Positions 580 to 38,516 of a DNA stretch of 64,000 nucleotides are shown piece by piece. Position 1 is the first letter of the stretch. Each line of letters begins with the position of its first letter. The stretch spans positions 15,623 to 79,622 of the forward strand of contig SUUQ01000003.1 of the NCBI GenBank assembly GCA_015062445.1. Reading direction: 5' to 3'. The position numbers and the translations under genes were made by a program. The notes below the pieces were generated by a model. The model worked only from the letters and a program-made list of their open reading frames with translations, was not told the DNA's origin and searched no databases. This DNA is from Alphaproteobacteria bacterium. GTDB lineage: Bacteria > Pseudomonadota > Alphaproteobacteria > Rs-D84.

Positions 580-1443
580 TTAGTCAATCGTGCTGCATGC
601 AATTTCATAGAATTTACACAGCTGGGTTGCCATTGAACGTTCTGATTCATAGCCAGCACCACAGCCGTTCTTCATGTTGTTCTGGCAGACGGTTTCAATA
701 CAGCTGTCACGGGTCGAATTGTCCGTGCAGCCCGATTTTATTTGTGATAACCGCTTTTGACGGGCGGATTTATATGTGTCAACAATCTGGGCCAATATTG
801 TGTCTGCGTTCTTAATCGCATTGTCACGATCCGATATTAACTGTGAACGAATGTCAGACAGATAGTCGTCACAGCCAGTCGTTTCAACACCGCAGGCAGA
901 AAAAAATTTGTCAAAGTCACTGTCCGATTCGCAATTGCGAAAGTTCGCAGTACAGTGCTTGTCAGATATCAAACATGCACGTATGGATGTTGAACACGTT
1001 GTACGTGATTTTGATTGGGCCATCTTGTCCAGTGTTTGATCCAACTGGGCAGAAACACCCGCTGCACGACACGATTGTTCAATTAAGCTGTCATAAGTTT
1101 CAGATACGTCATCGGCAGTGCAACCAGATACCTTTTTTATGCACTGACGGGCCGCCCAGGCATATCGCTGACCAGGGTCAGATGGGGCAGACTTTAATTC
1201 CTTGTCCGATATGTTGTATTTGGCAGATGCACCAACCGATACAGATCGCATGCCAGTCTTGGGCGGTGTCCCAGCCCCAGATGTGCCACAATACTGGCAC
1301 CGGGCAGATGGATTCGATGATACGTTTATCGCACATACAGAATCAAGACAACGCGTCAAATTCGCACGTGAACATGTGGGCGCAGCATTGGCACCACTGA
1401 ATATCAACAGGATTGGTAATAAAAATAATGTGTGTGTTTTCAT
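580..1443 (-). CDS. Secreted cysteine-rich protein (paralog family), 287 aa
   Basis: Signal peptide MKTHTLFLLPILLIFSGANA and about 30 Cys. The motif C-x-SDKHCTANFRNC matches CIADKGGCGANFENC in the 42837 paralog. Confidence 0.6.
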   Translation of the reverse strand: MKTHTLFLLPILLIFSGANAAPTCSRANLTRCLDSVCAINVSSNPSARCQYCGTSGAGTPPKTGMRSVSVGASAKYNISDKELKSAPSDPGQRYAWAARQCIKKVSGCTADDVSETYDSLIEQSCRAAGVSAQLDQTLDKMAQSKSRTTCSTSIRACLISDKHCTANFRNCESDSDFDKFFSACGVETTGCDDYLSDIRSQLISDRDNAIKNADTILAQIVDTYKSARQKRLSQIKSGCTDNSTRDSCIETVCQNNMKNGCGAGYESERSMATQLCKFYEIACSTID

Positions 1444-2279: not shown

Positions 2280-2396
2280 GTATGTTTTGTTAATGTCGTC
2301 AGTGGCCCATTGTATATGGGCCTTTTTTTGTGCTTTTTTTGGCTGGACATAGAAAAGTATTTTGTGCTAGGATTTGTTTGTACAGAGAGAATATAT

Positions 2397-5300
2397 ATGA
2401 AATTTGTTAGAATTTTAATCTTTTCATTGTTTTTGATGCCGGTGGCTTCGTTCGCGGCAGGCAGTGATTTTATGTTGGCTGCACAATTGTTGGCCGCCGC
2501 CAAGGCAGCAGATATACAACAGGTGCAAAGCTTGGTTAATAATGGGGCTGATGTGAACTTTGTTGATTCAACAGGTGTTTCAATCGTTTGTACGGCCTTG
2601 ATGAATAATGATGTGCGGGCGGCACAAATACTGCAGATGTATGGGGCGGATGCGTCACAATGCGATCGGCAGATAAAACAATATAATAAAAAAAATAAAC
2701 CAAAAACAGATTCTGGGGGATTGTTCAGTGGACTGTCGTCCGCCCAGGGGATTGCATTAGCGGCGGCGGGGGCCGCCGTTGTCGTAGGTGGATTGTTCTT
2801 GCTGACCGATGTGCTGGATCCGGGAAATGATAACGATTCGGGATCGGCTGGTGGTGACAGACCAAACAATAATCCTGATAATGGTGAAGGGGGGGGCGGG
2901 GCATCAAACGAAGCGTTCGCAAAATTGCCGTATGGGCCAGCATGTGACCCAGTAACAGGCGTGTGTAATAATGTTAATGACTGGAGCCCCAGTGGTGATT
3001 CTGTGCGGGCACAAGATTTCGCCGTGATGAAACCATGGAACTATTTGTTGATGACGTTTGCATATAATGCCTTGGCGCGTGGTTATTTGGGGCAGGATAC
3101 GGTTCGTATCACGTCTGATAAAACACCGTATGATTTGGGGGATTTGCCATGGGTCGGTGATGCGCCAGGTGGCGGGCAACCCGTAAATGTCGCAATTATT
3201 ACTGAAAATGGTGTGAACCCAAGTGGCAGTTTGGCAGATGGTTATATCGATTGGGTGGATGAAAGTCAGATTAATCGTGTGCAATCTGTGTGTAAACAGT
3301 ATGGCAGTGCACCAACAAACTGCAAGGATGCGCTGGCAAATGCTACAAAAATTTCGCGCAAGTTTGCAAATCGTACAAATATGAACGATTTAAATGATGT
3401 CAGCGAACAGGCAAAGTATGATTTTTCAGGACATGGGACTGTATTTGGTGATGCCAGCGCATTAGAGAGTTTGACCGGCAAGGTTGTCGCAGGTTGGGAA
3501 TATGGTGGTCGGGCAACAGGCGATTTTTATGGTTTCGTGCCAAATGGCACTTTGGCGGTATTTCGTACAGGTGGTGGATGGGGCGTTGATGTAAATGTTG
3601 GGACTGTTACACATGCAGTTGATGCCAGTGCATGGACGGTTGATGATACGTTTACTGTTGCAGGTACTACATATAAAATTACCGAGCTGGCAGATGGTGC
3701 TTTTTCGGCTGTGAATGTGGCGGATGAAACACAGGTGTTGGCTGGGAAGCAAAATGGATTGGTGCTGAATTTCAATGTTAATGATGTTCAATATGAAGCA
3801 GATTTTAATGGTGCTGTTAATTCCTTAAAACAAATTGATGTTATGAATTATTCGGCAATGCTGGCCGCTGCCCAAGACAAGGTTGATGGTGCGGCGCTGT
3901 CGGGGGTGATTGCAAATATTGCACAAAATCCACAGTCGACAAATGCAAATTACTTGAATTTGAACGGTATTGCAAATCTGGTGGTGGTGGGAAGTACAGA
4001 TGCGGACAAGAAATCTATATATGCGGCGGCAATCGATACATACTATGATTTGGACAAGTCGAATAACGATACTGTTAATACACAGGGGGATGATGCAGAT
4101 GAGTTGTATGAATATCTGGGGAATAATCAAGAACAAATAATTGTCAATTCTGTTGGTGCGTACAAAGTCGGAATTGGTGAAGGAATGTCGACAGAAACAC
4201 TGGTCGCAACATTTGAAAATTATGCGCCGTTGTTGTATCCAAATATGGAACATTTGTTTGCATCTGTGGTGGCTGTGCAAACACAAAAGGGGACATCTGC
4301 TATCAGTTCAATTTCAAGTTATTCTGGACCAAATTCAACAACAGGAAAAATCCAGTTGTCGCAATGGAATGGCTTTTCTTCGCGTAAATGTGGAACGGCG
4401 GGATTGGCAGTAAATGGGGTTGACCCGTGGTGCTTTGCAGCGCCTGGAGTTAACAGCGAGACGGCAGTGGCGGCAATGGCTGGTGGAATTGCAACTGTGC
4501 AGACCGCGTTTTCATACCTGAGTAATAAAGAAGTATTTGCCTTGTTGGCATTGACAGCGGATGGGGCATACCTGGGGACCAATCCATCCACTGGACGTGC
4601 GTGGGCAGACCAGGCGGAATTGGTGTCCTATTTACAGGGGAAATATCAGTTGCCAGCCGATTCGTATTATGTGTCAAATTCAGAATATTTGGATGCGTTC
4701 AAAGATGTCTTTGGATATGGGCTGATTAATTTGGAACGGGCAACACGACCAGGAACAACAATCTATTATTATGATGGAAATAATATTGTGTCTGGGGATG
4801 GTAATGCGTACTGGCGTGCGGCAACGAATACAGTGTTTCGTGGTTCGTCTGTGTTGAATCTGCGTGGTGCGGAAATAAATGTGCCGTTCTTTGATGTATT
4901 AAGCAGTGTTGATGGAGAAATGGTATTGCCACGTGTCTGGAATAATCATATCAGTTTGGGAAATGCTGATGAGCGGGGATTGTATATGGGGGATGTTCTG
5001 GGGGAATTGCAGACCAAAAAAAGTGTGGCAAATCGTACCAAGATTGGAAGTCTTGGGGTGAAAATGTCGTTCGCACAGCGGTCGTATGATGATAATATGA
5101 ACGGGTTAGATAACCTGGTGATAGAGTTTGATGCCGGAAAGTGGGATTTCGCAGCGTCATATCAGCACCATTTAACAGACGGTGCATCACAATTTGATGG
5201 TTTGGCCAATCCAGTATTGGCCATGGCATCAAATGCAGTTGTTTCTGATGTGATGTATCGTTCTGGAAAATGGATGCTGGGCGGACGGGTGTTTTCCGGG

Positions 5301-5984
5301 ACAGTTACTGATGAAGGTTTGATGGAAAATGATCCAACAATTGCATCGCAATATATGCCCGCAACATTGGGACTGATGCGGGGGGGGCAATCAATGCTAA
5401 AATGGAGCAATAGTCGTTTTGACTTTGTGACAGCGGTTGGTGCAGTTAATGAAACAGATACTTTGTTGGGGGCATATTCGGATGGATTGTTCAATCTGGG
5501 CAATGGAAATACGATGTATGTTGATGCGTTGGCAATGTATCGTGTGTCTGATTCTGTTGATTTTACAGCACGGGCAACATTTGCACGTACGGACACGGAT
5601 GCAAATGGTCAATTTGTTATGGGGATGTCAGATATTGAGTCTAATGCCTTTGCAATTGGTGCGAATGTTGGAAAATGGGAATTGACTGTGGCACAGCCGC
5701 TGGCGATAACAAATGGTTCTGTTAATTATGCAACAGCGGATTATGATGTTGTCAAGGTTGATGACTATAAATATGATTTGGTTGTAAATGATACAGGTGT
5801 CAAAGTGTTGGATTTGAGCCCGGAGAAACGAGAATTGCGCATTTCGGGAACATATCGCCATAATTTCGGCGAATTTACGGATGCGGCATTTGGATTCATT
5901 TATCGGATAAATCCAAATCATACAGATGAGTTTGGAAATGAATCGATATTTATGCTTAAGATGACACATCGATTGGGAATATAA
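2397..5984 (+). CDS. Large envelope protein: signal/TM, ankyrin repeat, Gly-rich region, possible degenerate subtilase-like region, beta-rich C-terminal domain
   Basis: Start moved to the internal ATG at 2397 (MKFVRILIFSLFLMPVASFAAG signal, preceded by agagag). Ankyrin-like AAKAADIQQVQSLVNNGADVN, a TM helix GIALAAAGAAVVVGGLFLL, S8-like remnants GHGT and GYGLINLERA, and a 300-aa beta-strand-rich C-terminus. Confidence 0.55.
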   Translation: MKFVRILIFSLFLMPVASFAAGSDFMLAAQLLAAAKAADIQQVQSLVNNGADVNFVDSTGVSIVCTALMNNDVRAAQILQMYGADASQCDRQIKQYNKKNKPKTDSGGLFSGLSSAQGIALAAAGAAVVVGGLFLLTDVLDPGNDNDSGSAGGDRPNNNPDNGEGGGGASNEAFAKLPYGPACDPVTGVCNNVNDWSPSGDSVRAQDFAVMKPWNYLLMTFAYNALARGYLGQDTVRITSDKTPYDLGDLPWVGDAPGGGQPVNVAIITENGVNPSGSLADGYIDWVDESQINRVQSVCKQYGSAPTNCKDALANATKISRKFANRTNMNDLNDVSEQAKYDFSGHGTVFGDASALESLTGKVVAGWEYGGRATGDFYGFVPNGTLAVFRTGGGWGVDVNVGTVTHAVDASAWTVDDTFTVAGTTYKITELADGAFSAVNVADETQVLAGKQNGLVLNFNVNDVQYEADFNGAVNSLKQIDVMNYSAMLAAAQDKVDGAALSGVIANIAQNPQSTNANYLNLNGIANLVVVGSTDADKKSIYAAAIDTYYDLDKSNNDTVNTQGDDADELYEYLGNNQEQIIVNSVGAYKVGIGEGMSTETLVATFENYAPLLYPNMEHLFASVVAVQTQKGTSAISSISSYSGPNSTTGKIQLSQWNGFSSRKCGTAGLAVNGVDPWCFAAPGVNSETAVAAMAGGIATVQTAFSYLSNKEVFALLALTADGAYLGTNPSTGRAWADQAELVSYLQGKYQLPADSYYVSNSEYLDAFKDVFGYGLINLERATRPGTTIYYYDGNNIVSGDGNAYWRAATNTVFRGSSVLNLRGAEINVPFFDVLSSVDGEMVLPRVWNNHISLGNADERGLYMGDVLGELQTKKSVANRTKIGSLGVKMSFAQRSYDDNMNGLDNLVIEFDAGKWDFAASYQHHLTDGASQFDGLANPVLAMASNAVVSDVMYRSGKWMLGGRVFSGTVTDEGLMENDPTIASQYMPATLGLMRGGQSMLKWSNSRFDFVTAVGAVNETDTLLGAYSDGLFNLGNGNTMYVDALAMYRVSDSVDFTARATFARTDTDANGQFVMGMSDIESNAFAIGANVGKWELTVAQPLAITNGSVNYATADYDVVKVDDYKYDLVVNDTGVKVLDLSPEKRELRISGTYRHNFGEFTDAAFGFIYRINPNHTDEFGNESIFMLKMTHRLGI

Positions 5985-6016
5985 AAAATCCCCAGAAATG
6001 GGGGATTTGTTTTTTT
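5984..6016. terminator. Bidirectional rho-independent terminator between convergent genes
   Basis: AATCCCCagaaaTGGGGGATT hairpin flanked by A and T runs. Confidence 0.5.
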
Positions 6017-6018
6017 CA

Positions 6019-7419
6019 TTATTTTTTGTAATACCGTTGGACTTCGTTCATTACAAAATTAAACAGTTTGCCGGCCTGGGTGGTGGCAGGCATCGCCCAG
6101 TCATGTTGCATATATGGCATGGCTGCAACCAATATAAAACGTGCCATAAAATGGAATATGCGGTTTTCCTGGTGCTTGGACAATTTAACAGGGGCATTGG
6201 AAACACGAAATACTTCGTTTTCAATTGCATCGTCCAGTTTTTCATTTATGTTGTCCAGAATTTTTTGTGGATAGTACAGTTTGCATTCTTTTGGAAAACC
6301 TTCGAACATGGATGCGGCATCCCCCTGGGAATACAGCAGATTCCAGCCAACACGATCAAACAAATCTTCCAGGCATTGGCATATCATGCGATTGTATGCC
6401 TTGACCCCGTCTTCATAATAGTCGGCCAGTTTTGCTTCTAGTCGGTCTGACTTTTTGGATTTGTTCTTGCGTGCCGTTTCGTATACGTCGTGTGTTTTGT
6501 TTTCAAATTCAAAGAACGTACGTACCTGGCATATAATTTCCATCGGAATTATGTGGTCTGCGTTTGGGCCAATGTTCAAGATAATCTTGGCATCACGATA
6601 ATTACGTGGGTTCTTCATGTTATAAAAACTGTCACGGACAGATAATATGCGGTCAGGCATCATGGCCTGGATGCGTTCAATAAATGTACGTGCCTGGGGA
6701 ATCAGGTCAAACAGGCATTTTACGCGCCAGACATCCTGCAGTCGCATGCGTGGACGGGCAACCTGATCCAGGGCACGTACCAAGTCAACAGCAATCTTTT
6801 CATGGCCAGATCCAATAATGGATAAAACTGTTTCAGATGGTGTAGAAATGTACCGTTCATTCAATTTTTCACGTATTTTGGTGGCAATGGCATGGGCGGA
6901 TGCTTCCCGTTCGTGAGATGCGATAACACGGTATACTGTATCGGATACTTCGTCGACGTATGATGCATAGTATTTGCCAGTGATTTTATCCAGTGCACGG
7001 TCTATTTTCTTTTGTGCACCAACAATAACAGTTACAATTGACGATACAGCCAGGTCAATTTTATGGCCTGCAGAACTGGTGAAAAATTGATTTCGCATCG
7101 GGTCTGCGTCCAGACGATGATTTACAACGTATGGTGACAATGGGTTCAAATCTGCAATACGAATCGGTTCGTCAATCGCACTGTCTGTGGCATAGTCGTA
7201 TTTCATAACTGCTGCCTTGGGGGCACCAAAGCATTTGCCCAGAACATAGAAAACCTCGTGGAACCAGTGTAGACTGTCCGAATACAGGATTTTCAAATAT
7301 TCGGCCGCTTCTTCGTTTATCCGACCGTCTGCAACGGCACGGGCAATCGCCGCCAAATTATGGCGGTCGTTATCTGCAGAAATATCGTGGGCCCAATTTT
7401 CAGACCCGATTAAAGACAT
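6019..7419 (-). CDS. RelA/SpoT-homolog (RSH) synthetase-like nucleotidyltransferase protein, 466 aa; candidate small alarmone synthetase or toxSAS-like protein
   Basis: Central region matches the order of RSH synthetase motifs. RPRMRLQDVWRVK compares with RelA GREKHVYSIWRKM. DLIPQARTFI compares with DVRAVRIV. FYNMKNPRNYRDAKIIL compares with DYVANPKPNGYQSIHTVV. GPNADHIIPMEIICQVRTFFEFENKTHDVYE compares with GPGGKTVEIQIRT..AAHWKYK. No HD hydrolase motif was seen. Confidence 0.55.
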   Translation of the reverse strand: MSLIGSENWAHDISADNDRHNLAAIARAVADGRINEEAAEYLKILYSDSLHWFHEVFYVLGKCFGAPKAAVMKYDYATDSAIDEPIRIADLNPLSPYVVNHRLDADPMRNQFFTSSAGHKIDLAVSSIVTVIVGAQKKIDRALDKITGKYYASYVDEVSDTVYRVIASHEREASAHAIATKIREKLNERYISTPSETVLSIIGSGHEKIAVDLVRALDQVARPRMRLQDVWRVKCLFDLIPQARTFIERIQAMMPDRILSVRDSFYNMKNPRNYRDAKIILNIGPNADHIIPMEIICQVRTFFEFENKTHDVYETARKNKSKKSDRLEAKLADYYEDGVKAYNRMICQCLEDLFDRVGWNLLYSQGDAASMFEGFPKECKLYYPQKILDNINEKLDDAIENEVFRVSNAPVKLSKHQENRIFHFMARFILVAAMPYMQHDWAMPATTQAGKLFNFVMNEVQRYYKK

Positions 7420-7440: not shown

Positions 7441-8916
7441 TTATTTCATTATTGGAAACAGGATGACGTCACGTAATGTGGGTTGGTCAAAGATAATGCT
7501 GGCCAGACGGTCAACACCAACACCAACACCGGAAATCGGCGGAAATCCGTGTTCCATCGCACGTACAAAATCATTGTCTGGGTTAAAGGCCTCTTCGTCA
7601 CCATCGGCAATGTTTTTCGCCTGTTCTTCGAATGCAGCCAATTGCTGGATAGGGTTCACAAGTTCTGAATACCCCTTGCAAATTTCTGCACCGCATACCA
7701 ATAACTGGTACATGTCAATACGACGTTCGTCTGTGTCATTGCGACGGGCCAGTGGTACCATGTATGCAGGATAGTTGTACAGGAATGTCGGATTTACAAT
7801 GTTGTTGCGTATCTTGCGTTTGTAGACATAGTCAACCAAGGCGGGAATGGATTTCAAATCTTCCAGTTCCGACATTGGGAACATGCCGGCATCAACCAGT
7901 TTTTGACGTAGTACGTTGACGTCATCAAAGTCCAGGATGTCACAACCAAAGAATTCATTCATCTTGGCGGTGTAGTTAATCATTTCGTATGATGAAAAGT
8001 CCAGCTGGGTTCCCTGGTATTCAATCTGTAATGTGCCACGGCACTTGGTCAATAATTCTTGAATCAGGTCCCAGGTGAATTTGATGTTGTCATTGAAATC
8101 CCAATAGGCAGCATACCATTCCACCATGGAAAATTCTTGCAGGTGCATCGCATCCATACCTTCGTTACGGAAATCCTTGGCAACTTCGTATACACGGTCA
8201 AAACCTGCGCCAATCGCCATCTTTAGGAATAATTCAGGCGAAATGCGTAACTGAAAATCTGCGTCCAGGGCATTGTGGTGGGTCGTAAATGGACGGGCCG
8301 CCGCACCAGATGCAATATTCTGCATAATTGGGGTTTCGATTTCCATAAAACCGTGGTTGTTCATGAAGTCGCGCCAGTATTGCATCATCTGGAATCTGCC
8401 CAATAATGCGTTGCGGGATTCTGGATTAGAGATAATGTCCAAATAACGTTGACGATATCTGGTTTCCATGTCTGTCAGACCATGATACTTTTCAGGCAGT
8501 GGACGTAGGGCCTTGGACAAAATTTCATAGTTCGATACACGTACGGTTAATTCGCCCGCAGTTGTGTGATACAGTTCGCCAGTGATGCCAATAAAGTCAC
8601 CCATGTCAACGTTGGCTTTCATAAATTTATAATTGTCTTCGCCCAGTTCTTCACGTGACATCGAAAATTGAATTTCGCCATTGATGTCATAGATGCGACC
8701 AAACATCAATTTGCCCAACCAACGCAGCGCAGTTACACGACCCGCCAAACGTACGGGGGTGCCATCTGATAAATTGCGGGATTGTGAAATTGTGTGAGTG
8801 CGGTCAAATTTATCTTTCCAGACAACGCCATCACGGGCACGAATGTTTTCTGCCTTTTGCAAACGTGCGGTTAATTCGTTTGTTGAAATTGGTGTGTTGT
8901 TTGTTTTTTCTGACAT
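7441..8916 (-). CDS. lysS: Lysyl-tRNA synthetase, class II
   Basis: 491 aa with class II motifs FRNEGMDAMHLQEFSMVEWY and a C-terminal GGVGVGVDRLASIIFDQPTLRDVILFP typical of LysRS. Confidence 0.9.
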   Translation of the reverse strand: MSEKTNNTPISTNELTARLQKAENIRARDGVVWKDKFDRTHTISQSRNLSDGTPVRLAGRVTALRWLGKLMFGRIYDINGEIQFSMSREELGEDNYKFMKANVDMGDFIGITGELYHTTAGELTVRVSNYEILSKALRPLPEKYHGLTDMETRYRQRYLDIISNPESRNALLGRFQMMQYWRDFMNNHGFMEIETPIMQNIASGAAARPFTTHHNALDADFQLRISPELFLKMAIGAGFDRVYEVAKDFRNEGMDAMHLQEFSMVEWYAAYWDFNDNIKFTWDLIQELLTKCRGTLQIEYQGTQLDFSSYEMINYTAKMNEFFGCDILDFDDVNVLRQKLVDAGMFPMSELEDLKSIPALVDYVYKRKIRNNIVNPTFLYNYPAYMVPLARRNDTDERRIDMYQLLVCGAEICKGYSELVNPIQQLAAFEEQAKNIADGDEEAFNPDNDFVRAMEHGFPPISGVGVGVDRLASIIFDQPTLRDVILFPIMK

Positions 8917-9079
8917 TTTATTTTGACCTTGTGTTTTTTGTTAAAAAAAACGGGTGCAGAAAGTGCGCCCGTCAGTGTTTGCTGATGGTCGCACATTTTA
9001 ATTGAAACGTTTAATACAATTTTTCATTGTTATTGGTGCACCCTGGTTTTTGTATAAAACCGCCACAAGGGCGGTTTCG

Positions 9080-9135
9080 AATTCTGGTGCGAGCAAAGGG
9101 GCTCGAACCCTCGACCTCAACCTTGGCAAGGTTGC
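9080..9135. repeat. attL: 56-bp direct repeat, a displaced copy of the 3' ~51 nt of tRNA-Gly plus 5 nt
   Basis: aattctggtgcgagcaaaggggctcgaaccctcgacctcaaccttggcaaggttgc is identical to 38461-38516. Confidence 0.65.
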
Positions 9136-9272
9136 CGCTTTGTCGCTGTGTTTTACACTACTTGCCTGATATAATGCCCGCATTTCCGCCAAAAGTCAAG
9201 AATAAATTTAGCATCAAAAAAAATATTTTTTTATTTTTGTGTCATTTTTGTGTCATATATGTATTTTTTTAC

Positions 9273-9301
9273 TTGACTGTGTGTATTATTGTGTGTATAA
9301 T
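9273..9301 (+). promoter_or_regulatory. Sigma70-like promoter for hicAB
   Basis: TTGACT, a 17-nt spacer, then TATAAT, about 25 nt upstream of hicA. Confidence 0.4.
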
Positions 9302-9325
9302 TATATCATAAAGAAAGGCAAAGAT

Positions 9326-9514
9326 ATGAACTATAGCAGTAAAGACCTGATAAAAATGATAGAACAAGATGGCTGGACATTGGTTAATACAACGGGCAGT
9401 CATCATAAATACAAGCACCCGTCAAAGCCTGGACAAGTGATAATCCCGCATCCACGCAAAGACATACCAAAGGGAACGGCAAACGCAATAAAAAAACAGG
9501 CAGGATTGAAATAA
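9326..9514 (+). CDS. hicA: HicA mRNA interferase toxin
   Basis: 62 aa from the internal ATG with an aaagaaagg RBS. Shows GWTLVNTTGSHHKYKHP...IPHPRKDIPKGTANAIKKQAGL, the HicA signature. Confidence 0.8.
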   Translation: MNYSSKDLIKMIEQDGWTLVNTTGSHHKYKHPSKPGQVIIPHPRKDIPKGTANAIKKQAGLK

Positions 9515-9542
9515 TCCTGCCCCCAACAAAAAAGGATAGACC

Positions 9543-9929
9543 ATGAAAAAATATGTTGCATTATTTGAATTTGGAGAAAACTCGGTCGGTGTTGTGTTTC
9601 CTGATCTGCCAGGTTTAACCAGTGCCGGAGATAACTTTGACGATGCGTTCAAGAACGCACACGAAGCATTGTCATTATATGCGGACGGCGAAAAGAATAT
9701 GCCAAAACCTCGCACATTAGAACAAATCAAAGAACAATGGCCAGATTGGCAGGAATGGAAAGACAACTACGAATTTACCGCAGGTATCGTTGATTTGGTG
9801 CCTTTGAGCACCAAAAGCAAAAGAATCAATATTACTTTGCCGGAAGATTTGCTGTACAGAATTGACAATATCACAAACAATCGTTCTGGTTTTATTGATT
9901 CTGCTGTGCGTAGAGCATTAGCGGCATAA
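9543..9929 (+). CDS. hicB: HicB antitoxin
   Basis: N-terminal HicB fold (KKYVALFEFGENSVGVVFPDLPG) and a C-terminal RHH-like INITLPEDLLYRID...AVRRALA. Confidence 0.8.
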   Translation: MKKYVALFEFGENSVGVVFPDLPGLTSAGDNFDDAFKNAHEALSLYADGEKNMPKPRTLEQIKEQWPDWQEWKDNYEFTAGIVDLVPLSTKSKRINITLPEDLLYRIDNITNNRSGFIDSAVRRALAA

Positions 9930-10891: not shown

Positions 10892-11410
10892 TCATTTATT
10901 CTCTTCCTTTAAATTATTCGCATCATATCCAACAGCATCTTTTAGTTTTTTGTTTGTGATCTGTGTTAGTATGTAAAAAACCCTGTCCCCCGTTGCGTGA
11001 TAAAAATTTTCAAGAATGCTGTAAAACTCAATTCCGCAAATGAACCCGGTAAAATATCGGGAAACTGATACTTGCAATATCAATTCAAGCATTCTAGCAC
11101 ATATGATAACCATCATATAACTATAACTTTTATTCAACGACTCTCTGAACCGCTGGCTTTGCCACGTTTGACCTCGTTTTCGAGATACCCAACACCCTGT
11201 AATAAAATCTACTATTATAAAAAAGGCACATGCACACAACCACCATTTCAAAGGGCCGAAGAATGCTAATACTCCGGCCCAAAATGCATACAATATATTT
11301 CCTGCATGTAGTTTATCTATGATTCTAAACATCTTCGTCCCCTGCGGTTTCGCTATTTCCAAGTGTTCCAAAATCCAATACGAATTCATAATCTTCGGGA
11401 TTCTCAACAC
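10892..11410 (-). CDS. Holin candidate (multi-TM small membrane protein); start uncertain, since internal ATGs at 11389 and 11332 are possible
   Basis: 3-4 predicted TM helices (ILYAFWAGVLAFFGPL, WWLCACAFFIIVDFITGCWV, YSYMMVIICARMLELILQV). It is the first gene of the lysis cassette. Confidence 0.4.
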   Translation of the reverse strand: MLRIPKIMNSYWILEHLEIAKPQGTKMFRIIDKLHAGNILYAFWAGVLAFFGPLKWWLCACAFFIIVDFITGCWVSRKRGQTWQSQRFRESLNKSYSYMMVIICARMLELILQVSVSRYFTGFICGIEFYSILENFYHATGDRVFYILTQITNKKLKDAVGYDANNLKEENK

Positions 11411-11633: not shown

Positions 11634-13451
11634 TTACAATGTTCCATAGTCTAAAGTTTCGCCATCTGTTACAGTATCAGTAATGAGACCATAATCTTGT
11701 GGCCCTGTTAGTTTTTTATAAATCTTTGACATTTCGTCTTTTGTTACCAGTGTTTGCACAGTGTTTTCTATATCTGTCTTTATTTGTCGTGCAGTCTCTG
11801 CACTGGTGGCCGCACTGGCTGCAGATGCACTGGCATTCGAAGCGGATTGTGATGCGCTGGTTGCGGATGTACTGGCATTTGTTTCTGATTTTGCCGCATT
11901 TGTTGCGCTGGTCGCTGAATTTTGTGCCGAAGATGCGGCTGCAGATGCAGAACCTGCCGCAGTTGTTGCAGATGCCGATGCATTTGTTGCAGATGTGCTT
12001 GCTTTGTTTGCCTCTGTTTTTGCTTGGTTGACATACCCTTGCAGCAGACTTTCATTTTGTTTTGTTGTTTCTGCAGAAGTTTGGGCTTCTTCAGCGGATT
12101 TGGCAGATGCATTTGCCGAACTTAGAGCATTTCCTGCACTGTTTGCGGCATCCGCTGCACTGTTAAAAGCATTTGTTTCTGATTCTGCGGCAGACGATGC
12201 AGAAGCACCCGCTTCTTGTGCATGATATTTTGCACTGTATTCATCATCTATTACAGGCCCACTTGTCTTTGTTGCCCATTCTTTGGCATTTTCTTCATAT
12301 GTTTTCGCATTTAATGAATGCTGTTCCGCATTTTGCTCTGATGTTGTGGCCTGTGATGCGGATGTTGCGGCATTTATAGCACTTGTTTTTGCACTGGTCG
12401 CATCATCTTGTGCTTGTTGTGCAGACGTAGTAGCGGATGATGCACTGTCTGCTGATTTGCGTTCATTTTCTGCTGTATTTTCTGCGGCGGCTTTTATTTC
12501 TGCGGCATGTTCATCAAATCCGATAACCGACATAGAACCATCGGCTTCGATAAATACCTTGCCACGTGTATTTTTGTCATCTCCCTTAACTAGACCACAG
12601 GAATCATTGGTCGCAATACTTACTGTATCAATTCCTCTGTCTATCCAATGATTACCACGTTCGTCTGTATTCTCATAATATGTTATTGCGTGATTATTTT
12701 TTTTGTTTAATAAGGTTGTGCCTACTGGCGGAACTGTCCCAATTCCCACCTTTGCGGCAGATTCATATGCCCTTTGATAATCTGTTTCTGTTGCTTCTTC
12801 TGCAAGTTCCACCTGATATGTAGTCGCTTTGTTTTCAAGTGACATTAATCTTTTTGTGTGATCTTGAATCGCCCTAAAAGTTTCGGGATTCATCATACCA
12901 ACCTGTTCAGAATTGGCAACAGGTAACGGTGTTATGCGGACCGTGTCCTTACCGGTTGTTGTATCCCTTGAAACAGTCCTGACATTAATAACCTCTGGTC
13001 GTATATCTAGTTCGGCAGAGTATATAACGGTCGGCACAGTATCTTTTGCTACAGATGCAGTTCGTATAGATTCTATGGAACGGCGAATTGCGGATTCTGC
13101 GTTTTCTGCCCTGAGGGCTTCGCTTGTTATATTTGCAGCATTTTTTGATAATTCGGACAAAATTCCGTTTATTTTATTGAGGCACTGTTCCCAAAATTCT
13201 AAGAATGAAAGGGTTTGCCCCGTTTTGAATTTTACAGCGTTTTCTTCGATTGTAAATGCTTGGGGTGCAACCTCATATATATTTTGCGAGTTTCTTTTTA
13301 TCGTTTTTTCGTCAAAATCAACTTCAAGTTTCAACGCAAAGCCATGCGGAAAAGACAACGGATCGTTTGGATTAAAATTTTTTGGATCGATCCATAAACG
13401 ATAGTATTTGTTTTGGCGAATGAGTTTTATTTGATTAGTTGTTTCCGGCAT
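11634..13451 (-). CDS. Phage tail fibre protein with long Ala/Ser/Thr-rich low-complexity repeat region
   Basis: 605 aa, positioned between the lysis and structural modules. Carries SATTSAQQAQDDATSAKTSAINAATSAS.. repeats. Confidence 0.55.
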   Translation of the reverse strand: MPETTNQIKLIRQNKYYRLWIDPKNFNPNDPLSFPHGFALKLEVDFDEKTIKRNSQNIYEVAPQAFTIEENAVKFKTGQTLSFLEFWEQCLNKINGILSELSKNAANITSEALRAENAESAIRRSIESIRTASVAKDTVPTVIYSAELDIRPEVINVRTVSRDTTTGKDTVRITPLPVANSEQVGMMNPETFRAIQDHTKRLMSLENKATTYQVELAEEATETDYQRAYESAAKVGIGTVPPVGTTLLNKKNNHAITYYENTDERGNHWIDRGIDTVSIATNDSCGLVKGDDKNTRGKVFIEADGSMSVIGFDEHAAEIKAAAENTAENERKSADSASSATTSAQQAQDDATSAKTSAINAATSASQATTSEQNAEQHSLNAKTYEENAKEWATKTSGPVIDDEYSAKYHAQEAGASASSAAESETNAFNSAADAANSAGNALSSANASAKSAEEAQTSAETTKQNESLLQGYVNQAKTEANKASTSATNASASATTAAGSASAAASSAQNSATSATNAAKSETNASTSATSASQSASNASASAASAATSAETARQIKTDIENTVQTLVTKDEMSKIYKKLTGPQDYGLITDTVTDGETLDYGTL

Positions 13452-13460
13452 AATGTTATC

Positions 13461-14237
13461 CTATAGTTGTCTGACTCTTATGTATCCAGCATATCCGGTT
13501 GCTTTGATAAACGATGTTCCGTTCCATCCACAATCCCCCGCTTTCCCACGGGTATTATCTTCTGGCCAGTTATCATTGGTTCTACCATTAGTTGCCGCTC
13601 TACTGGTGGCAGATGATGCACCCTGACTTGATACACATTGACTGTTATTGTTTATTAAAATGTTTTGAACGGCAGTCCCTGTTAAAGTATTGGTTCCGAT
13701 TACCCCAACATTTCTATTACAGCCGGTAGTCGAAGTCGCTGTCGTGCTTCCTGCGGTTCCGCCACCTGCCTTTGCAGTTAAATTTGGGATGCCGGCAATC
13801 GTTGTATCGCCACCTTTGACACCTGTTACAGTGCCACCAGATGCCGATGAAAAAGTTCCTGTGTTTGTTGCACCGCCTGAACCAACGGTTATTGAAACAG
13901 AAGCCGGCTCTGTTAAGATCGCAACAAATTGTAATGTCCCGCCAACACCGCCTTGTGCATAATGGTGGGTGCCCGAAACACTGCTCCTACGACCTGAAGC
14001 ACCACCGCCCGCACCAATTAGAGTAAACTCAAATTTACCAGCGGTAAGATTCAAGGTATAAGAACCAGATTCTTTTGATTCAAAAATTAAAATTGGGTCT
14101 CCGGTATAAAACAAATGTGCTTTGCCATCGATACCAACATAAGCCCGTTTTAATTTATGGGCCGCCTTATTAATACCAACATATATCACACCTACTTTTT
14201 TTGCCTTGCCATCAACACCGACCAATACTTGAGTCAT
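13461..14237 (-). CDS. Glycine-rich phage tail fibre-like protein
   Basis: Carries GAGGGASG...GGVGG...GSGGATNTG glycine-rich repeats typical of phage fibre proteins. Confidence 0.5.
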   Translation of the reverse strand: MTQVLVGVDGKAKKVGVIYVGINKAAHKLKRAYVGIDGKAHLFYTGDPILIFESKESGSYTLNLTAGKFEFTLIGAGGGASGRRSSVSGTHHYAQGGVGGTLQFVAILTEPASVSITVGSGGATNTGTFSSASGGTVTGVKGGDTTIAGIPNLTAKAGGGTAGSTTATSTTGCNRNVGVIGTNTLTGTAVQNILINNNSQCVSSQGASSATSRAATNGRTNDNWPEDNTRGKAGDCGWNGTSFIKATGYAGYIRVRQL

Positions 14238-37142: not shown

Positions 37143-37439
37143 ATGAAACAAGAACAAAGGAAATATGTCGGTATAACACAGGCGGCGAAAATAGTCGGAA
37201 AATCCTATAAGGGGTTTATGAAAAAGGTAGATTTGGGTCAAATCCCTTATTTTATGGACGGAGACCGCATGTGCTTTTATATCGATGAACTGACAAAACA
37301 ACCGGAATCACAATGTCATATAAAATCTATAAAAGAAAAACATCGCCGGTCTATTATGCGAGAATCTCGGTCCGCATCAACGGCCAGACAAAACTTGAAA
37401 GGTTCTCAACTCACGAATCTAGCCGAGATAAGGCCTTAG
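37143..37439 (+). CDS. xis: Excisionase-like HTH protein
   Basis: YVGITQAAKIVGKSYKGFMKKV...IPYFMDGDRMCFYIDEL is AlpA/Xis-like. Lies immediately upstream of int and overlaps it. Confidence 0.55.
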   Translation: MKQEQRKYVGITQAAKIVGKSYKGFMKKVDLGQIPYFMDGDRMCFYIDELTKQPESQCHIKSIKEKHRRSIMRESRSASTARQNLKGSQLTNLAEIRP

Positions 37440-38332
37440 AAATCGCACGAATGGCGGAACAAAAACTGCTTGCCCATAATGGTGCAGTTGATATCACAAT
37501 AGAACAGGCTTTTGGGGAGTTTTACAAACGAGAAAGCCAAAACTATACCGCCCCCAAAAATATTTATTATGCATTATCTCAATTTTCTGCATTTTTTGGG
37601 GGCCTCAGACCCTTTTCTTCTCTTACAAACGCAGACATAAATAATTTTATTTACTCAAGGCAGGTCGAGGGACGTGCCCCAGCAACTATAAATCGTCAGT
37701 TAGTCATATTGTCCAAGGTAATTTCAACCTGTAAAAAGAAATGGGGCTTTGTTGCCCCTGATGTGCATCCACTAGAATTTAAATTACGGGAACCTGACGG
37801 ACGTATTGGTCTCGTGAACGACGACGACCGACAGAAAATAATGGATGCTGCCGCACCACACTTAAAATTGGCTATGCAGATTGCTTATTATACAGGACTT
37901 CGTAAAGGCAACATTTTGTCGTTGCGCTGGGATGAAATCGATACCGAACGTTGGTCTATAACAAAATTCATAAAAGACAGCAACTTTAAAGGTGGTCGTG
38001 CCCATACAGTATTTATCCCTGATGCCCTAAAGAGCATTCTGCAGGCAATACCGCACACCTGTGATTATGTTATCGCCATAGACGGGAAACCAATCAAAGA
38101 CCTTAAAACAGCATGGCATGCCGCCTGCCGCAGAGCGGGTATTCCGCATCGCAAATACACCTTTCACGATGTCCGGCATGGATCAGCGACAGCGGTCGTT
38201 CGTACAACAAATTCGTTATATGCCGCCCAGGTATTTTTAGGGCACAAATCTCCCAAAATGACCCAACGGTATGCTAAATTTTTAGATGAAGACAAGATAA
38301 GAATCGCACACTCTGTGTTTGACAATAAATAG
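37313..38332 (+). CDS. int: Tyrosine integrase
   Basis: C-terminal HDVRHGSATAVV...LGHKSPKMTQRYAKF gives the R..HxxR..Y catalytic residues. Lies adjacent to attR and tRNA-Gly. Confidence 0.85.
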   Translation: MSYKIYKRKTSPVYYARISVRINGQTKLERFSTHESSRDKALEIARMAEQKLLAHNGAVDITIEQAFGEFYKRESQNYTAPKNIYYALSQFSAFFGGLRPFSSLTNADINNFIYSRQVEGRAPATINRQLVILSKVISTCKKKWGFVAPDVHPLEFKLREPDGRIGLVNDDDRQKIMDAAAPHLKLAMQIAYYTGLRKGNILSLRWDEIDTERWSITKFIKDSNFKGGRAHTVFIPDALKSILQAIPHTCDYVIAIDGKPIKDLKTAWHAACRRAGIPHRKYTFHDVRHGSATAVVRTTNSLYAAQVFLGHKSPKMTQRYAKFLDEDKIRIAHSVFDNK

Positions 38333-38460: not shown

Positions 38461-38516
38461 AATTCTGGTGCGAGCAAAGGGGCTCGAACCCTCGACCTCA
38501 ACCTTGGCAAGGTTGC
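38461..38516. repeat. attR: 56-bp direct repeat identical to 9080-9135
   Basis: Exact repeat that forms the 3' portion of the intact tRNA-Gly. Confidence 0.65.

What the first reader, a model, noticed from the sequence alone, without database searches (positions are those of the whole stretch)
6019..7419. Stand-alone 466-aa protein with a RelA/SpoT-like (p)ppGpp/(p)ppApp synthetase core: candidate toxSAS-type defence or effector protein
The central ~130 aa reproduce the order and spacing of RSH synthetase motifs.
- RPRMRLQDVWRVK vs GRxKxxYSIWRKM.
- D-x4-R (DLIPQARTFI) vs DVRAVRIV.
- FYNMKNPRNYRDAKIIL vs DYVANPKPNGYQSIHTVV. The His of YxSxH is replaced by Lys.
- GPNADHIIPMEIICQVRTFFEFENKTHDVYE vs GPGGKTVEIQIRT...HW.YK.
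There is no HD hydrolase domain. About 230 aa of unknown N-terminal domain and about 150 aa of unknown C-terminal domain flank the core. This is the architecture of fused toxSAS/antitoxin anti-phage proteins (CapRel-like) or of (p)ppApp-synthesising toxin effectors. The gene lies right beside a prophage attachment site.
Basis: partly seen in the sequence, partly recalled or inferred. Interest (0 to 1): 0.65.

Follow-up and report, generated by a model that had tools for sequence, protein, structure and literature searches.

The report
Divergent RelA/SpoT-like enzyme, core gene
This gene encodes a very divergent relative of the bacterial "alarmone synthetase" enzymes, but it is a vertically inherited core gene co-transcribed with lysyl-tRNA synthetase in tiny-genome gut bacteria, not a phage-defence toxin.

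Summary
The 466-aa ORF (6019-7419, minus strand) is real. Its centre does have the RelA/SpoT-homologue (RSH) synthetase fold. Two independent AlphaFold models (the query, and a relative about 21% identical) both retrieve only small alarmone synthetases, CapRel and Rel at the top of the PDB. Profile-profile alignments to SAS2 (E 2e-4 and 7e-4) give one consistent register. The catalytic Asp (D229), Glu (E294) and acceptor-stacking Tyr (Y274) are invariant across the family. No member reaches the Pfam RelA_SpoT threshold.

The defence/toxin interpretation is not supported. The host is Candidatus Enterousia, with genomes under 1 Mb. A relative was found in 276 species-representative genomes. The gene lies 3-35 nt downstream of lysS in 82 of 83 loci, tracks Tgt phylogenetically, is under purifying selection throughout, and has no antitoxin or immunity neighbour. 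Its C-terminus is all-helical and conserved, unlike CapRel's. The nearby att site exists only because a prophage integrated into the tRNA-Gly gene upstream of lysS.

Best reading: a lineage-specific housekeeping pyrophosphokinase, probably an alarmone synthetase. The acceptor substrate is undetermined.

The parts
6019..7419 (-). Whole ORF, 466 aa including the stop codon: a divergent RSH-fold protein.
   Evidence: ORF list and translation. 615 homologues of about 466 aa, all annotated 'hypothetical'. AF2 model pLDDT 79, pTM 0.78.
7039..7419 (-). N-terminal region, aa 1-127: three helices (9-64) carrying family-invariant I34 and nearly invariant N21 and I25 (Y46 is invariant in the 18-sequence alignment), then three short strands.
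   Evidence: Secondary structure. Invariants. Homologous between the two subfamilies from residue 13 onward (hhalign probability 99.3%).
7081..7119 (-). Loop HRLDADPMRNQFF (aa 101-113). It is the most conserved stretch in the Enterousia clade, is modelled with low confidence, and is absent from the distant subfamily. Its function is unknown; it may be a substrate or partner-binding lid.
   Evidence: Invariant columns. pN 0.029. pLDDT below 50 for residues 104-124. Gap in the distant subfamily.
6967..7035 (-). True first synthetase motif (aa 129-151): a beta-strand, then K137...R141...K145 at the start of a helix. It is equivalent to the RSH motif R-x-K...S...K, which binds the donor-nucleotide phosphates.
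   Evidence: K137, R141 and K145 are invariant in all 37 family sequences. hhalign of the distant subfamily against SAS2 aligns PRMKKAERAIEKL with SRVKSFESIVNKL. Strand-helix topology. pN/pS 0.085.
6757..6966 (-). Helical insertion between motifs 1 and 2 (aa 152-221). Its length varies across the family, and it is longer than the equivalent linker in SAS enzymes.
   Evidence: Four helices, 149-218. Length variation and the deletion in P0123. YwaC has about 28 aa between the motif-1 Lys and the motif-2 Asp (sequence printed).
6460..6756 (-). Synthetase motifs 2-4 (aa 222-320):
- strand with D229 and R232 (RSH D-x-x-G-x-R)
- N270-x-R-x-Y274-x-D276-x-K278 (RSH K-x-N-G-Y-x-S-x-H)
- E294 strand (RSH E-x-Q-x-R-T)
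- H310-x-x-Y313-E (RSH H-x-x-Y-K)
   Evidence: Alignments to YwaC/SAS2. Invariance of D229, R232, Y274, K278, E294, H310 and R317. Pfam RelA_SpoT sub-threshold hits on this region in P0126 and P0159.
6022..6459 (-). C-terminal all-helical region (aa 321-466). It includes a long helix (325-363) with invariant Y342 and nearly invariant N343. Its role is unknown. It is not a CapRel-type pseudo-ZFD.
   Evidence: DSSP shows helices only. pN/pS 0.26 for 321-366 and 0.15 for 367-466. Pseudo-ZFD definition from PMC9712102.
7441..8916 (-). lysS (class II lysyl-tRNA synthetase). It is the upstream gene of the same transcription unit, 21 nt from the ORF start.
   Evidence: Pfam tRNA-synt_2 and the anticodon-binding OB domain. 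Spacer sequence. Adjacency with a 3-35 nt gap in 82 of 83 loci.
5986..6008 (.). Bidirectional intrinsic-terminator hairpin immediately after the ORF stop codon. It marks the end of the lysS-ORF unit.
   Evidence: Terminator scan: 8-bp stem with T-runs on both strands. Sequence.
8915..8944 (-). Promoter-like site upstream of lysS (TTAACA-18-TAAAAT). This is a consensus match only.
   Evidence: matching 10 of 12 positions. The scan found no more promoter-like sites than in shuffled sequence, so this is weak evidence.
9080..9135 (.). attL of the neighbouring prophage: a 56-nt exact copy of the 3' part of tRNA-Gly (attR 38461-38516). It is not part of the gene's system.
   Evidence: tRNA-Gly(GCC) at 38466-38542. 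Integrase at 37313-38332. In relatives, tRNA-Gly lies about 170 nt upstream of lysS.

Best explanation
The ORF encodes a highly divergent, lineage-restricted member of the RelA/SpoT-homologue (RSH) synthetase superfamily. RSH synthetases are Mg2+-dependent pyrophosphokinases.

**Shown**
- The central part has the RSH synthetase fold: aa 129-151 plus 222-320, interrupted by a helical insertion of about 70 aa.
- The residues that do chemistry in RSH enzymes are invariant across the family: the Mg2+-binding Asp (D229), the catalytic Glu (E294), the Tyr that stacks on the pyrophosphate-acceptor base (Y274), and a cluster of basic residues (K137, R141, K145, R232, K278) plus H310.
- The gene is a vertically inherited chromosomal gene of Candidatus Enterousia (order Rs-D84, genomes under 1 Mb).
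- It lies 21 nt downstream of lysS, with no predicted terminator in between and a strong hairpin after it.

**Inferred**
- The gene is transcribed with lysS, from the gene layout and the terminator scan.
- The protein is catalytically active. It transfers the beta,gamma-pyrophosphate of ATP to the 3'-OH of a purine nucleotide held on Y274. This would make an alarmone-type product, (p)ppGpp and/or (p)ppApp, for endogenous growth control.
- It is a housekeeping small alarmone synthetase with extra N- and C-terminal regulatory domains, not a toxin or defence protein.
- Co-expression with LysRS would tie its level to expression of the translation apparatus.

**Not determined**
- The acceptor substrate. 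The acceptor-loop residues differ from those of guanine-specific RSH enzymes.
For: **Fold**
- Foldseek of the query model against the PDB: 47 of the top 50 hits are RelQ, RelP, SAS, CapRel, Rel or SpoT. Best E is 7.9e-4. The best superpositions cover 123-146 columns at rmsd 3.2-4 A with TM about 0.5 per target.
- An independent model of a relative about 21% identical (P0154, pLDDT 90.6) gives 23 hits at E <= 1e-3, all RelQ or RelP. Ranks 1-30 are all RSH enzymes.
- In the viral structure library, the best hit and four more of the top 13 are annotated RelA/SpoT or YjbM proteins.

**Sequence**
- The family profile's only PDB hit is YwaC/SAS2, E 0.013.
- hhalign of the family against a SAS2 profile gives E 1.8e-4. 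The distant subfamily against SAS2 gives E 7e-4 over 126 columns, including motif 1.
- RelA_SpoT is the only Pfam family touched by more than one member.

**Catalytic residues**
- K137, R141, K145, D229, R232, Y274, K278, E294 and H310 are invariant in 37 sequences that go down to 18% identity.
- The Asp and Tyr equivalents (D90 and Y128 of FaRel2) are the residues whose mutation abolishes activity (bioRxiv 10.1101/2021.04.30.441581).

**Core-gene status**
- 276 species-representative genomes carry a relative.
- Host genomes are 0.75-1.0 Mb (PMC12306168).
- lysS is adjacent in 82 of 83 loci, and its 3' end is adjacent in the 83rd.
- The neighbourhood is housekeeping: queA, tgt, csp, cysS, rpoD.
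- Distances track Tgt, rho 0.70.
- pN/pS is 0.2 with synonymous sites saturated, and every region is constrained.

**Operon layout:**
Against: - Sequence similarity to RSH enzymes is at the detection limit. No member reaches the Pfam gathering score (best 15 bits against 27). The merged profile loses the YwaC hit in HMMER. hhalign probabilities are only 26-48%.
- Active-site positions are remodelled.
  - The Arg of R-x-K is Ala135 in Enterousia.
  - The Gly of D-x-x-G-x-R is Arg232, and the Arg position is Lys or Thr.
  - These two Arg residues coordinate the ATP adenine in CapRel (R79 and R116; PMC9712102).
  - So donor binding may differ, or activity may be lost.
- The acceptor loop reads N-x-[KR]-x-Y-x-D-x-K, not K-x-N-G-Y-x-S-x-H, so guanine specificity cannot be assumed.
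- The protein evolves about 2.7 times faster than Tgt or within-class LysRS.
- The lysS linkage is confined to Enterousia. More distant relatives follow ruvB, tgt or alr. Co-transcription may therefore reflect genome compaction and not function.
- I could not test whether these genomes also encode a canonical long RSH.
Confidence: 0.55

Rival explanations
1. tRNA 3'-CCA pyrophosphokinase with an endogenous regulatory role. Like FaRel2, PhRel2 and CapRel, the enzyme would pyrophosphorylate the 3' adenosine of uncharged tRNA. Here this would be a regulated housekeeping brake on aminoacylation, functionally coupled to LysRS.
For: - The RSH fold and the invariant Asp and Tyr are the same residues required for tRNA modification by FaRel2.
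- The acceptor loop is not the guanine-type K-x-N-G-Y.
- tRNA-related neighbours recur: lysS in Enterousia, overlap with the 3' end of tgt in P0130, a tRNA_edit gene beside P0154, a U32-family gene after P0125, and thrS within 3.1 kb of P0155.
- The motif-1 and motif-2-4 segments are basic, with pI 9.6-9.8.
Against: - Neighbourhoods are not conserved across the family. Two intermediates follow ruvB.
- In genomes under 1 Mb, translation genes are a large share of all genes, so such adjacency is expected by chance.
- The whole protein is neutral (pI 6.9).
- No small alarmone hydrolase or other eraser gene is seen nearby.
- ORF466 and LysRS do not co-evolve. LysRS has two allelic classes that ORF466 ignores.
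Confidence: 0.15
2. Catalytically inactive RSH-fold pseudoenzyme. It would be kept as a structural or nucleotide-sensing protein, for example one that binds an alarmone or ATP and regulates a partner.
For: - The two adenine-sandwiching Arg positions of RSH enzymes are not conserved at the aligned positions.
- The E-x-Q-x-R strand is E-I-I-C-Q-V-R in Enterousia, with a 2-residue shift.
- There are large extra domains and a hyper-conserved, apparently flexible loop (aa 101-113). These fit a binding role.
Against: - The catalytic Asp, Glu and Tyr, and five basic residues, are invariant over sequences only 18-20% identical. This is hard to explain without catalysis.
- Motif 1 is among the most constrained segments (pN/pS 0.085).
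- R141 and R232 are invariant and could replace the missing Arg residues.
Confidence: 0.12
3. Either a fused toxSAS/antitoxin anti-phage protein (CapRel-like), or a toxic (p)ppApp-synthesising effector delivered to other cells.
For: - The RSH fold with long extensions in one polypeptide. CapRel is the second-ranked PDB hit.
- A prophage lies 1.7 kb away.
- Enterousia is thought to live off other cells (PMC12306168), so effectors are plausible.
- Exported alarmone synthetases also lack immunity genes (PMC12691689).
Against: - It is a core, syntenic, vertically inherited gene.
- There are no PADLOC or PHROG hits.
- The C-terminus is all-helical and conserved, not a variable beta-sheet pseudo-ZFD. 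The CapRel superposition is global nonsense, with rmsd 24 A.
- There is no antitoxin or immunity neighbour in any context.
- The sequence shows no signal peptide and no PAAR, LXG or MuF-type delivery domain.
- The gene is outside the prophage, which targets tRNA-Gly.
Confidence: 0.08

Closest known systems
Housekeeping small alarmone synthetases RelQ/SAS1 and RelP/SAS2 (for example B. subtilis YjbM and YwaC; PDB 5DEC, 6FGK, 6EWZ)
   Same: - Best structural matches for both models.
- Same order of motifs.
- Mg2+-binding Asp, catalytic Glu, acceptor-stacking Tyr and the H-x-x-Y helix are all conserved.
- Chromosomal, with no antitoxin.
   Different: - Below the Pfam RelA_SpoT threshold.
- More than twice the size, at 466 aa against about 210.
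- N-terminal extension of 127 aa, a helical insertion of about 70 aa between motifs 1 and 2, and a helical C-terminal region of 146 aa.
- Altered motifs: D-x-x-R-x-K in place of D-x-x-G-x-R, Y-x-D-x-K in place of Y-x-S-x-H, and the R-x-K arginine lost in Enterousia.
- Restricted to uncultured Alphaproteobacteria.
CapRel (fused toxSAS-antitoxin anti-phage protein; PDB 7ZTB, 9ERV)
   Same: A single polypeptide with an RSH synthetase domain plus a C-terminal extension. It is a high-ranking Foldseek hit.
   Different: - In CapRel the synthetase domain is N-terminal. The antitoxin is a three-stranded beta-sheet pseudo-ZFD with a YXXY hinge. That domain is the least conserved region, and the gene is carried on prophages (PMC9712102).
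- Here the synthetase core is central. The C-terminus is all-helical and constrained. The gene is a syntenic core gene outside the prophage.
toxSAS toxin-antitoxin modules (FaRel, FaRel2, PhRel, PhRel2)
   Same: The RSH fold. The Asp and Tyr required for FaRel2 activity are conserved. tRNA as an acceptor is not excluded.
   Different: toxSAS are defined by conserved two- or three-gene operons with an antitoxin (PMC7229694). No such partner is seen in any of the contexts examined.
Secreted or exported (p)ppApp/(p)ppGpp synthetases (Tas1/Apk1, SaEAS; PDB 8VX3)
   Same: SaEAS is the single best PDB match by E-value (7.9e-4). Like exported alarmone synthetases, this gene has no adjacent immunity gene.
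   Different: Those proteins carry a Sec signal peptide or a PAAR, LXG or other delivery domain (PMC12691689; PMC7229694). This protein has an acidic, hydrophilic N-terminus and no such domain.

Membership tests
RSH (RelA/SpoT homologue) synthetase superfamily | Synthetase-domain fold: a five-stranded mixed sheet with flanking helices. | tested here: met
   Two independent AF2 models (pLDDT 79 and 90.6). Foldseek top hits in the PDB are exclusively RSH enzymes, with E down to 4.7e-5. In the viral library the best hit and four more of the top 13 are annotated RelA/SpoT or YjbM proteins.
RSH (RelA/SpoT homologue) synthetase superfamily | Significant match to the curated sequence model (Pfam PF04607 RelA_SpoT, gathering score 27 bits). 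| tested here: not met
   The query has no hit even at E <= 10. The best family member, P0126, scores 15 bits, E 0.031. Profile-profile comparisons to SAS2 give E 1.8e-4 and 7e-4 with probabilities of 48% and 26%.
RSH (RelA/SpoT homologue) synthetase superfamily | Mg2+-coordinating Asp on strand beta2 (D-x-x-G-x-R) and catalytic Glu on strand beta5 (E-x-Q-x-R). | tested here: met
   D229 and E294 are invariant in 37 sequences and align to D87 and E154 of YwaC. The flanking Gly, Arg and Gln are not conserved in Enterousia.
RSH (RelA/SpoT homologue) synthetase superfamily | Acceptor-stacking Tyr in the G-loop motif (N-G-Y-x-S-x-H). | tested here: met
   Y274 is invariant and aligns to the Tyr of PNGYRSLH. 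His is replaced by the invariant K278, and Ser by the nearly invariant D276.
RSH (RelA/SpoT homologue) synthetase superfamily | Donor-ATP binding basic residues: R-x-K...K of motif 1, and the Arg of D-x-x-G-x-R. | tested here: inconclusive
   K137 and K145 are conserved, and R141 and R232 are new invariant Arg residues. The two canonical Arg positions are Ala135 and Lys234 in the query.
RSH (RelA/SpoT homologue) synthetase superfamily | Pyrophosphokinase activity (ATP to the 3'-OH of an acceptor). | not testable with these tools
   Needs an enzyme assay.
toxSAS toxin-antitoxin systems | A conserved bi- or tricistronic operon with a neutralising antitoxin gene (PMC7229694). | tested here: not met
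   The upstream neighbour is lysS in 82 of 83 Enterousia loci, and ruvB, tgt or alr in relatives. Downstream genes vary: csp, an autotransporter-like gene, U32, Sel1, GIY-YIG.
toxSAS toxin-antitoxin systems | Toxicity on expression, dependent on the synthetase active site. | not testable with these tools
   Needs expression experiments.
CapRel-type fused toxSAS | A C-terminal pseudo-ZFD antitoxin/sensor domain: a three-stranded beta-sheet with a YXXY hinge. It is the most variable region (PMC9712102). | tested here: not met
   Residues 321-466 are helices only in both models. pN/pS is 0.15-0.26 there, no higher than the rest of the protein.
CapRel-type fused toxSAS | Location in prophages or defence islands, with a patchy distribution. 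| tested here: not met
   The gene is outside the prophage (attL 9080-9135). Its position is fixed and its distances track Tgt. No PADLOC hit.
Secreted (p)ppApp/(p)ppGpp synthetase effectors (Tas1/Apk, EAS) | A delivery signal (Sec signal peptide, PAAR, LXG or MuF domain) and, for toxins, an adjacent immunity gene. | tested here: not met
   No such Pfam domain. The N-terminus MSLIGSENWAHDISADNDRH is hydrophilic. No conserved neighbour.
Long RSH (Rel/RelA/SpoT) | An N-terminal HD hydrolase domain plus C-terminal TGS, ZFD and ACT regulatory domains. | tested here: not met
   No HD, TGS or ACT hits in Pfam or NCBIfam. The protein has 466 aa with non-matching flanks.

The most novel reading that the evidence does not exclude
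This family is the only alarmone-type synthetase left in the reduced genomes of Rs-D84 Alphaproteobacteria, and its remodelled donor and acceptor sites give it a non-canonical substrate. One possibility is housekeeping pyrophosphorylation of tRNA 3' ends coupled to LysRS. Another is a nucleotide other than GDP or GTP. Either way, a chemistry known so far from toxins would be serving as a normal regulatory device in an obligate symbiont.
Probability: 0.15. Interest if true: 0.75.

Novelty: new variant of a known kind. Interest (0 to 1): 0.45.

Why it matters
RSH enzymes are catalogued mainly with sequence HMMs (PMC7229694). No member of this family reaches the Pfam RelA_SpoT threshold, and every member whose source gives a name is labelled 'hypothetical'. 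It may therefore be missing from surveys of the stringent response.

It shows that the RSH synthetase fold persists, with conserved catalytic residues but re-wired nucleotide-binding positions and new flanking domains, as a core gene in bacteria with genomes under 1 Mb. Obligate host-dependent bacteria are generally reported to have lost RSH enzymes. That last point is from my own knowledge of the RSH literature and was not tested here.

If the protein is active, it would indicate that alarmone-type (or tRNA-directed) pyrophosphorylation is retained in a lineage with a very small genome. It would also provide a natural variant for studying donor and acceptor specificity.

The case is also a warning: an RSH-like core next to a prophage is not evidence of a defence function.

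Tried and rejected
**Searches that found nothing significant**
- Single-sequence searches of the query against Pfam, NCBIfam, PADLOC, PHROGs and PDB sequences.
- The profile of close homologues against the PDB gave only chance LHCA2 matches.
- The distant-subfamily profile and the merged profile against the PDB by HMMER gave only a weak, probably spurious, PHF3 match to the N-terminal helices. Merging the subfamilies did not improve on the 18-sequence profile.
- Rfam over the whole window found no leader or riboswitch upstream of lysS, only the two tRNAs.
- phmmer with the YwaC core against all stop-to-stop segments of the window and 91 loci (1.06 Mb) found no canonical RSH. This is uninformative for whole genomes.

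I used A1 instead.

**A search of limited value**
- The last homology search, seeded with YwaC, returned only close RelP orthologues at 62-97% identity. The RSH-side profile was therefore narrow, which limits the hhalign probabilities.

**Ideas considered and rejected**
- That the N-terminal region is a degenerate HD hydrolase domain. It is too short, contains strands, and has no HD motif or Pfam hit.
- That the lysS linkage proves a functional coupling. It is not conserved outside Enterousia, and LysRS and this protein do not co-evolve.
Full report
**1. The observation.**

The ORF is real: 6019-7419 on the minus strand, ATG start, 466 aa. An AGGGGG Shine-Dalgarno-like element lies 8 nt upstream of the start codon.

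On its own the sequence matches nothing. Searches of Pfam, NCBIfam, PADLOC, PHROGs and PDB sequences gave no hit, or only noise, even at E <= 10.

**2. The family.**

The protein has 615 detectable homologues in a 5.8-billion-protein collection. The best 120 are 73-100% identical and almost all are 463-476 aa long. Every one that carries a name is a 'hypothetical protein' from an Alphaproteobacteria metagenome-assembled genome.

An exhaustive HMMER search of 1.84 billion cluster representatives found only 48 clusters, so the family is narrow. It has three tiers:
- **The Enterousia clade.**
- **Intermediates** at 34-59% identity (P0121-P0126, P0130).
- **A distant subfamily** at about 20% identity (P0154 and relatives). 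A dedicated search found 44 clusters, again all unannotated and alphaproteobacterial.

The two ends of the family are clearly homologous over residues 13-363 (hhalign probability 99.3%, E 1e-20).

**3. Is the core an RSH synthetase? Fold evidence.**

An AlphaFold model of the query (pLDDT 79, pTM 0.78) was searched against the PDB with Foldseek.
- 47 of the top 50 hits are small alarmone synthetases (RelQ/SAS1, RelP/SAS2, the exported SaEAS), CapRel, or the Rel/SpoT catalytic domains.
- The best E-value is 7.9e-4. The best superpositions cover 123-146 columns at rmsd 3.2-4 A, with TM about 0.5 per target.
- The first non-RSH nucleotidyltransferase, Cid1, appears at rank 48.

Because these E-values are marginal, I modelled the distant subfamily independently (P0154, 32-sequence alignment, pLDDT 90.6, pTM 0.87). 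It gave 23 PDB hits at E <= 1e-3, all RelQ or RelP, with a best E of 4.7e-5. Ranks 1-30 are all RSH enzymes.

The viral structure library gives the same answer. The best hit is the Sinorhizobium phage phiN3 RelA/SpoT family protein. Four more of the top 13 are annotated RelA/SpoT or YjbM, from uncultured Caudovirales phages, Fadolivirus and an unclassified virus.

**4. Is the core an RSH synthetase? Sequence evidence and verdict.**

- An 18-sequence family profile has exactly one PDB sequence hit at E <= 10: B. subtilis YwaC/SAS2, E 0.013.
- RelA_SpoT is the only Pfam family touched by more than one member, 3 of 18. Of the ten members re-scanned individually, P0126 (15.0 bits) and P0159 (10.8 bits) match it, over the same core region.
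- hhalign of the whole family against an 18-sequence SAS2 profile gives E 1.8e-4.
- hhalign of the distant subfamily against SAS2 gives E 7e-4 over 126 columns.
- All alignments agree on one register.

However, the family fails the curated Pfam threshold (27 bits), and hhalign probabilities are only 26-48%. Homology rests mainly on structure prediction plus motif conservation.

**5.

| Position in this protein | Aligned position in YwaC/SAS2 |
|---|---|
| D229 | Asp of H-D-I-A-G-V-R |
| R232 | the Gly of that motif |
| K234 | the Arg of that motif |
| Y274, D276, K278 | Y, S, H of P-N-G-Y-R-S-L-H |
| E294 | Glu of E-I-Q-I-R-T |
| H310, Y313 | E-H-K-I-Y-Y |

- The distant subfamily keeps a cleaner E-x-Q-x-K at the beta5 strand.
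The strand-loop-helix VTVIVGAQK137KIDR141ALDK145 (aa 129-151) corresponds to S-R-V-K-S-F-E-S-I-V-N-K-L of SAS2. This is shown through the distant subfamily alignment PRMKKAERAIEKL / SRVKSFESIVNKL and fits the strand-helix topology of both models.

The resulting architecture is:
- an N-terminal region of 127 aa: three helices, three short strands, and a low-confidence loop;
- motif 1;
- a variable helical insertion of about 70 aa (152-221);
- motifs 2-4 (222-320);
- an all-helical C-terminal region of 146 aa.

Across 37 sequences that go down to 18% identity, the invariant residues are I34, K137, R141, K145, D229, R232, Y274, K278, E294, H310, R317 and Y342. These include the Mg2+-binding Asp and the acceptor-stacking Tyr. 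Mutating their FaRel2 equivalents (D90, Y128) abolishes activity (bioRxiv 10.1101/2021.04.30.441581).

Some canonical positions are not conserved.
- The Arg of R-x-K is Ala135 here, and Lys or Arg in the distant subfamily.
- The Arg of D-x-x-G-x-R is Lys234 here and Thr in the distant subfamily.
- In CapRel the corresponding R79 and R116 coordinate the ATP adenine (PMC9712102).
- The invariant R141 and R232 may compensate. This is an inference.

The acceptor loop (N-x-[KR]-x-Y-x-D-x-K) also differs from the guanine-type K-x-N-G-Y-x-S-x-H. The acceptor cannot be read from the sequence.

**6. Genomic context: the host and the lysS unit.**

The host is Candidatus Enterousia, according to the record titles. 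This is order Rs-D84, with genomes of 0.75-1.0 Mb, and it is thought to depend on other cells (PMC12306168). One closed chromosome is 958,618 bp (L057). 276 species-representative genomes encode a relative.

In the window the ORF starts 21 nt after the stop codon of lysS (class II LysRS). No terminator-like site lies between them. An 8-bp bidirectional hairpin sits immediately after the ORF's stop codon (5986-6008). A promoter-like site lies upstream of lysS.

Across 83 loci, lysS is directly upstream on the same strand with a 3-35 nt gap in 82. The 83rd locus (L017) keeps only the last 33 codons of lysS. The wider neighbourhood in a relative is queA, an M16 peptidase, tgt, tRNA-Gly, lysS, this gene, csp, cysS and rpoD.

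**7. Genomic context: relatives and the prophage.**

Outside Enterousia the linkage changes:

| Relative | Neighbourhood |
|---|---|
| P0122, P0126 | follow ruvB |
| P0130 | overlaps the 3' end of tgt |
| P0125 | followed by a U32-family gene |
| P0154 | beside a tRNA_edit gene |
| P0155 | follows alr |
| P0159 | followed by a Sel1 protein |

No context is a defence island or a phage. None offers a conserved small partner gene.

The 'att site' is explained as follows.
- 9080-9135 is a 56-nt exact copy of the 3' part of tRNA-Gly(GCC) at 38461-38516.
- An integrase lies at 37313-38332.
- HicAB, a holin and tail-fibre-like genes lie just inside attL.
- The prophage therefore spans about 9.1-38.5 kb. 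It lies on the far side of lysS.
- It is there because tRNA-Gly is the native neighbour of lysS, about 170 nt upstream in L001 and L057.

**8. Evolutionary behaviour.**

- Against the window copy, the median pN/pS is 0.195, compared with 0.098 for lysS. Synonymous sites are saturated (pS about 0.73), so the true ratio is lower.
- Every region is constrained. The strongest constraint is on the loop HRLDADPMRNQFF (pN 0.029) and on motif 1 (pN/pS 0.085). The C-terminal 100 residues have pN/pS 0.147.
- Pairwise distances track those of Tgt (Spearman rho 0.70), which indicates vertical descent. The protein evolves about 2.7 times faster than Tgt: mean distance about 0.25 against about 0.09.
- LysRS splits into two deep allelic classes that neither Tgt nor this protein follows. 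This argues against tight co-evolution of LysRS and this protein.

**9. Interpretation.**

The most economical reading is a catalytically competent, lineage-specific RSH-type pyrophosphokinase with a housekeeping role. It is probably an alarmone synthetase with extra regulatory domains, expressed from the lysS transcription unit.
- The fold, the motif conservation and the core-gene status are shown by the analyses above.
- Activity, the donor and acceptor, and the physiological role are inferred.

The rivals, with my confidence in each, are:
- A tRNA 3'-end pyrophosphokinase used as an endogenous regulator (0.15). Recurring tRNA-related neighbours and a non-guanine-type acceptor loop favour it. 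The adjacency is not conserved, and it is expected by chance in tiny genomes.
- An inactive pseudoenzyme (0.12). The lost canonical arginines favour it. The invariance of Asp, Glu, Tyr and the basic cluster argues against it.
Synteny, vertical inheritance, the helical conserved C-terminus, and the absence of partner genes, delivery signals and PADLOC or PHROG hits all contradict it.

**10. Comparison with known families and novelty.**

The protein works like a small alarmone synthetase and belongs structurally to the RSH synthetase superfamily. It does not pass the curated sequence model and differs at several motif positions.

It is not a member of the toxSAS toxin-antitoxin, CapRel, or secreted-effector groups. 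The defining features of each were tested and not met (see the membership table).

I rate it a new variant of a known kind: an unannotated, architecturally distinct RSH subfamily confined to uncultured, reduced-genome Alphaproteobacteria.

Interest is moderate (0.45). It is not categorically new. It is nevertheless a clean case of an RSH-fold enzyme that HMM-based annotation has not named, kept as a core gene in a genome under 1 Mb, with an altered nucleotide-binding site worth testing.

**11. Limits.**

- I could not inspect model coordinates to confirm that the invariant residues cluster in a cleft.
- I could not scan a whole Enterousia genome for a canonical Rel/SpoT.
- The RSH-side profile was narrow.

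Noticed in passing
window 7441-8916 (lysS) and loci L001-L086: LysRS of Ca. Enterousia falls into two deep allelic classes (mean amino-acid distance 0.089 within a class, 0.246 between classes; bimodal), although lysS always occupies the same locus. The flanking Tgt and the 466-aa protein do not follow the split. This suggests in-situ allele replacement or recombination at lysS.
   Followed up: partly
window 9080-38516: A prophage of about 29.4 kb sits in a host whose genomes are under 1 Mb.
- attL 9080-9135 and attR 38461-38516 are a 56-nt exact repeat of the 3' part of tRNA-Gly(GCC) (38466-38542).
- A tyrosine integrase lies at 37313-38332.
- HicA/HicB (9239-9929) sit just inside attL.
- Other phage-like genes: a holin (10892-11410), an Ala/Ser-rich 605-aa fibre-like protein (11634-13451) and a Gly_rich_2 protein (13461-14237).
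- Relatives L001 and L057 have tRNA-Gly about 170 nt upstream of lysS with no room for a prophage between them.

   Followed up: partly
window 7081-7119 (aa 101-113 of the ORF): The loop HRLDADPMRNQFF is the most conserved stretch of the protein in Enterousia and the intermediate relatives (pN 0.029). AlphaFold nevertheless models residues 104-124 at pLDDT below 50, and the loop is missing from the distant subfamily. It may be a partner- or substrate-binding element.
   Followed up: partly
window 2310-5984, 39412-42360, 42837-44987, 45010-47475, 49871-54697, 58517-61888: Several very large ORFs (1224, 982, 716, 821 and 1608 aa) have no Pfam hit. The 1123-aa ORF at 58517-61888 ends in an Autotransporter beta-domain. 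This fits the many unknown surface or membrane proteins reported for Rs-D84 genomes (PMC12306168).
   Followed up: no
window 580-1443 (minus strand): A 287-aa Cys-rich protein with an N-terminal hydrophobic, signal-like segment (MKTHTLFLLPILLIFSGANA) and no Pfam hit. It may be secreted.
   Followed up: no
L017 4462-5977: This is the one Enterousia genome in which lysS upstream of the gene is reduced to its last 33 codons. A 414-aa minus-strand ORF occupies the space. It could be an insertion, a rearrangement or an assembly chimera.
   Followed up: no
L006 10066-11217 and L005 2116-3243: In the distant subfamily, the gene is followed at 2-20 nt by a protein of about 380 aa. That protein has no Pfam hit after P0155 and has Sel1 repeats after P0159. 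It may be a subfamily-specific partner.
   Followed up: no
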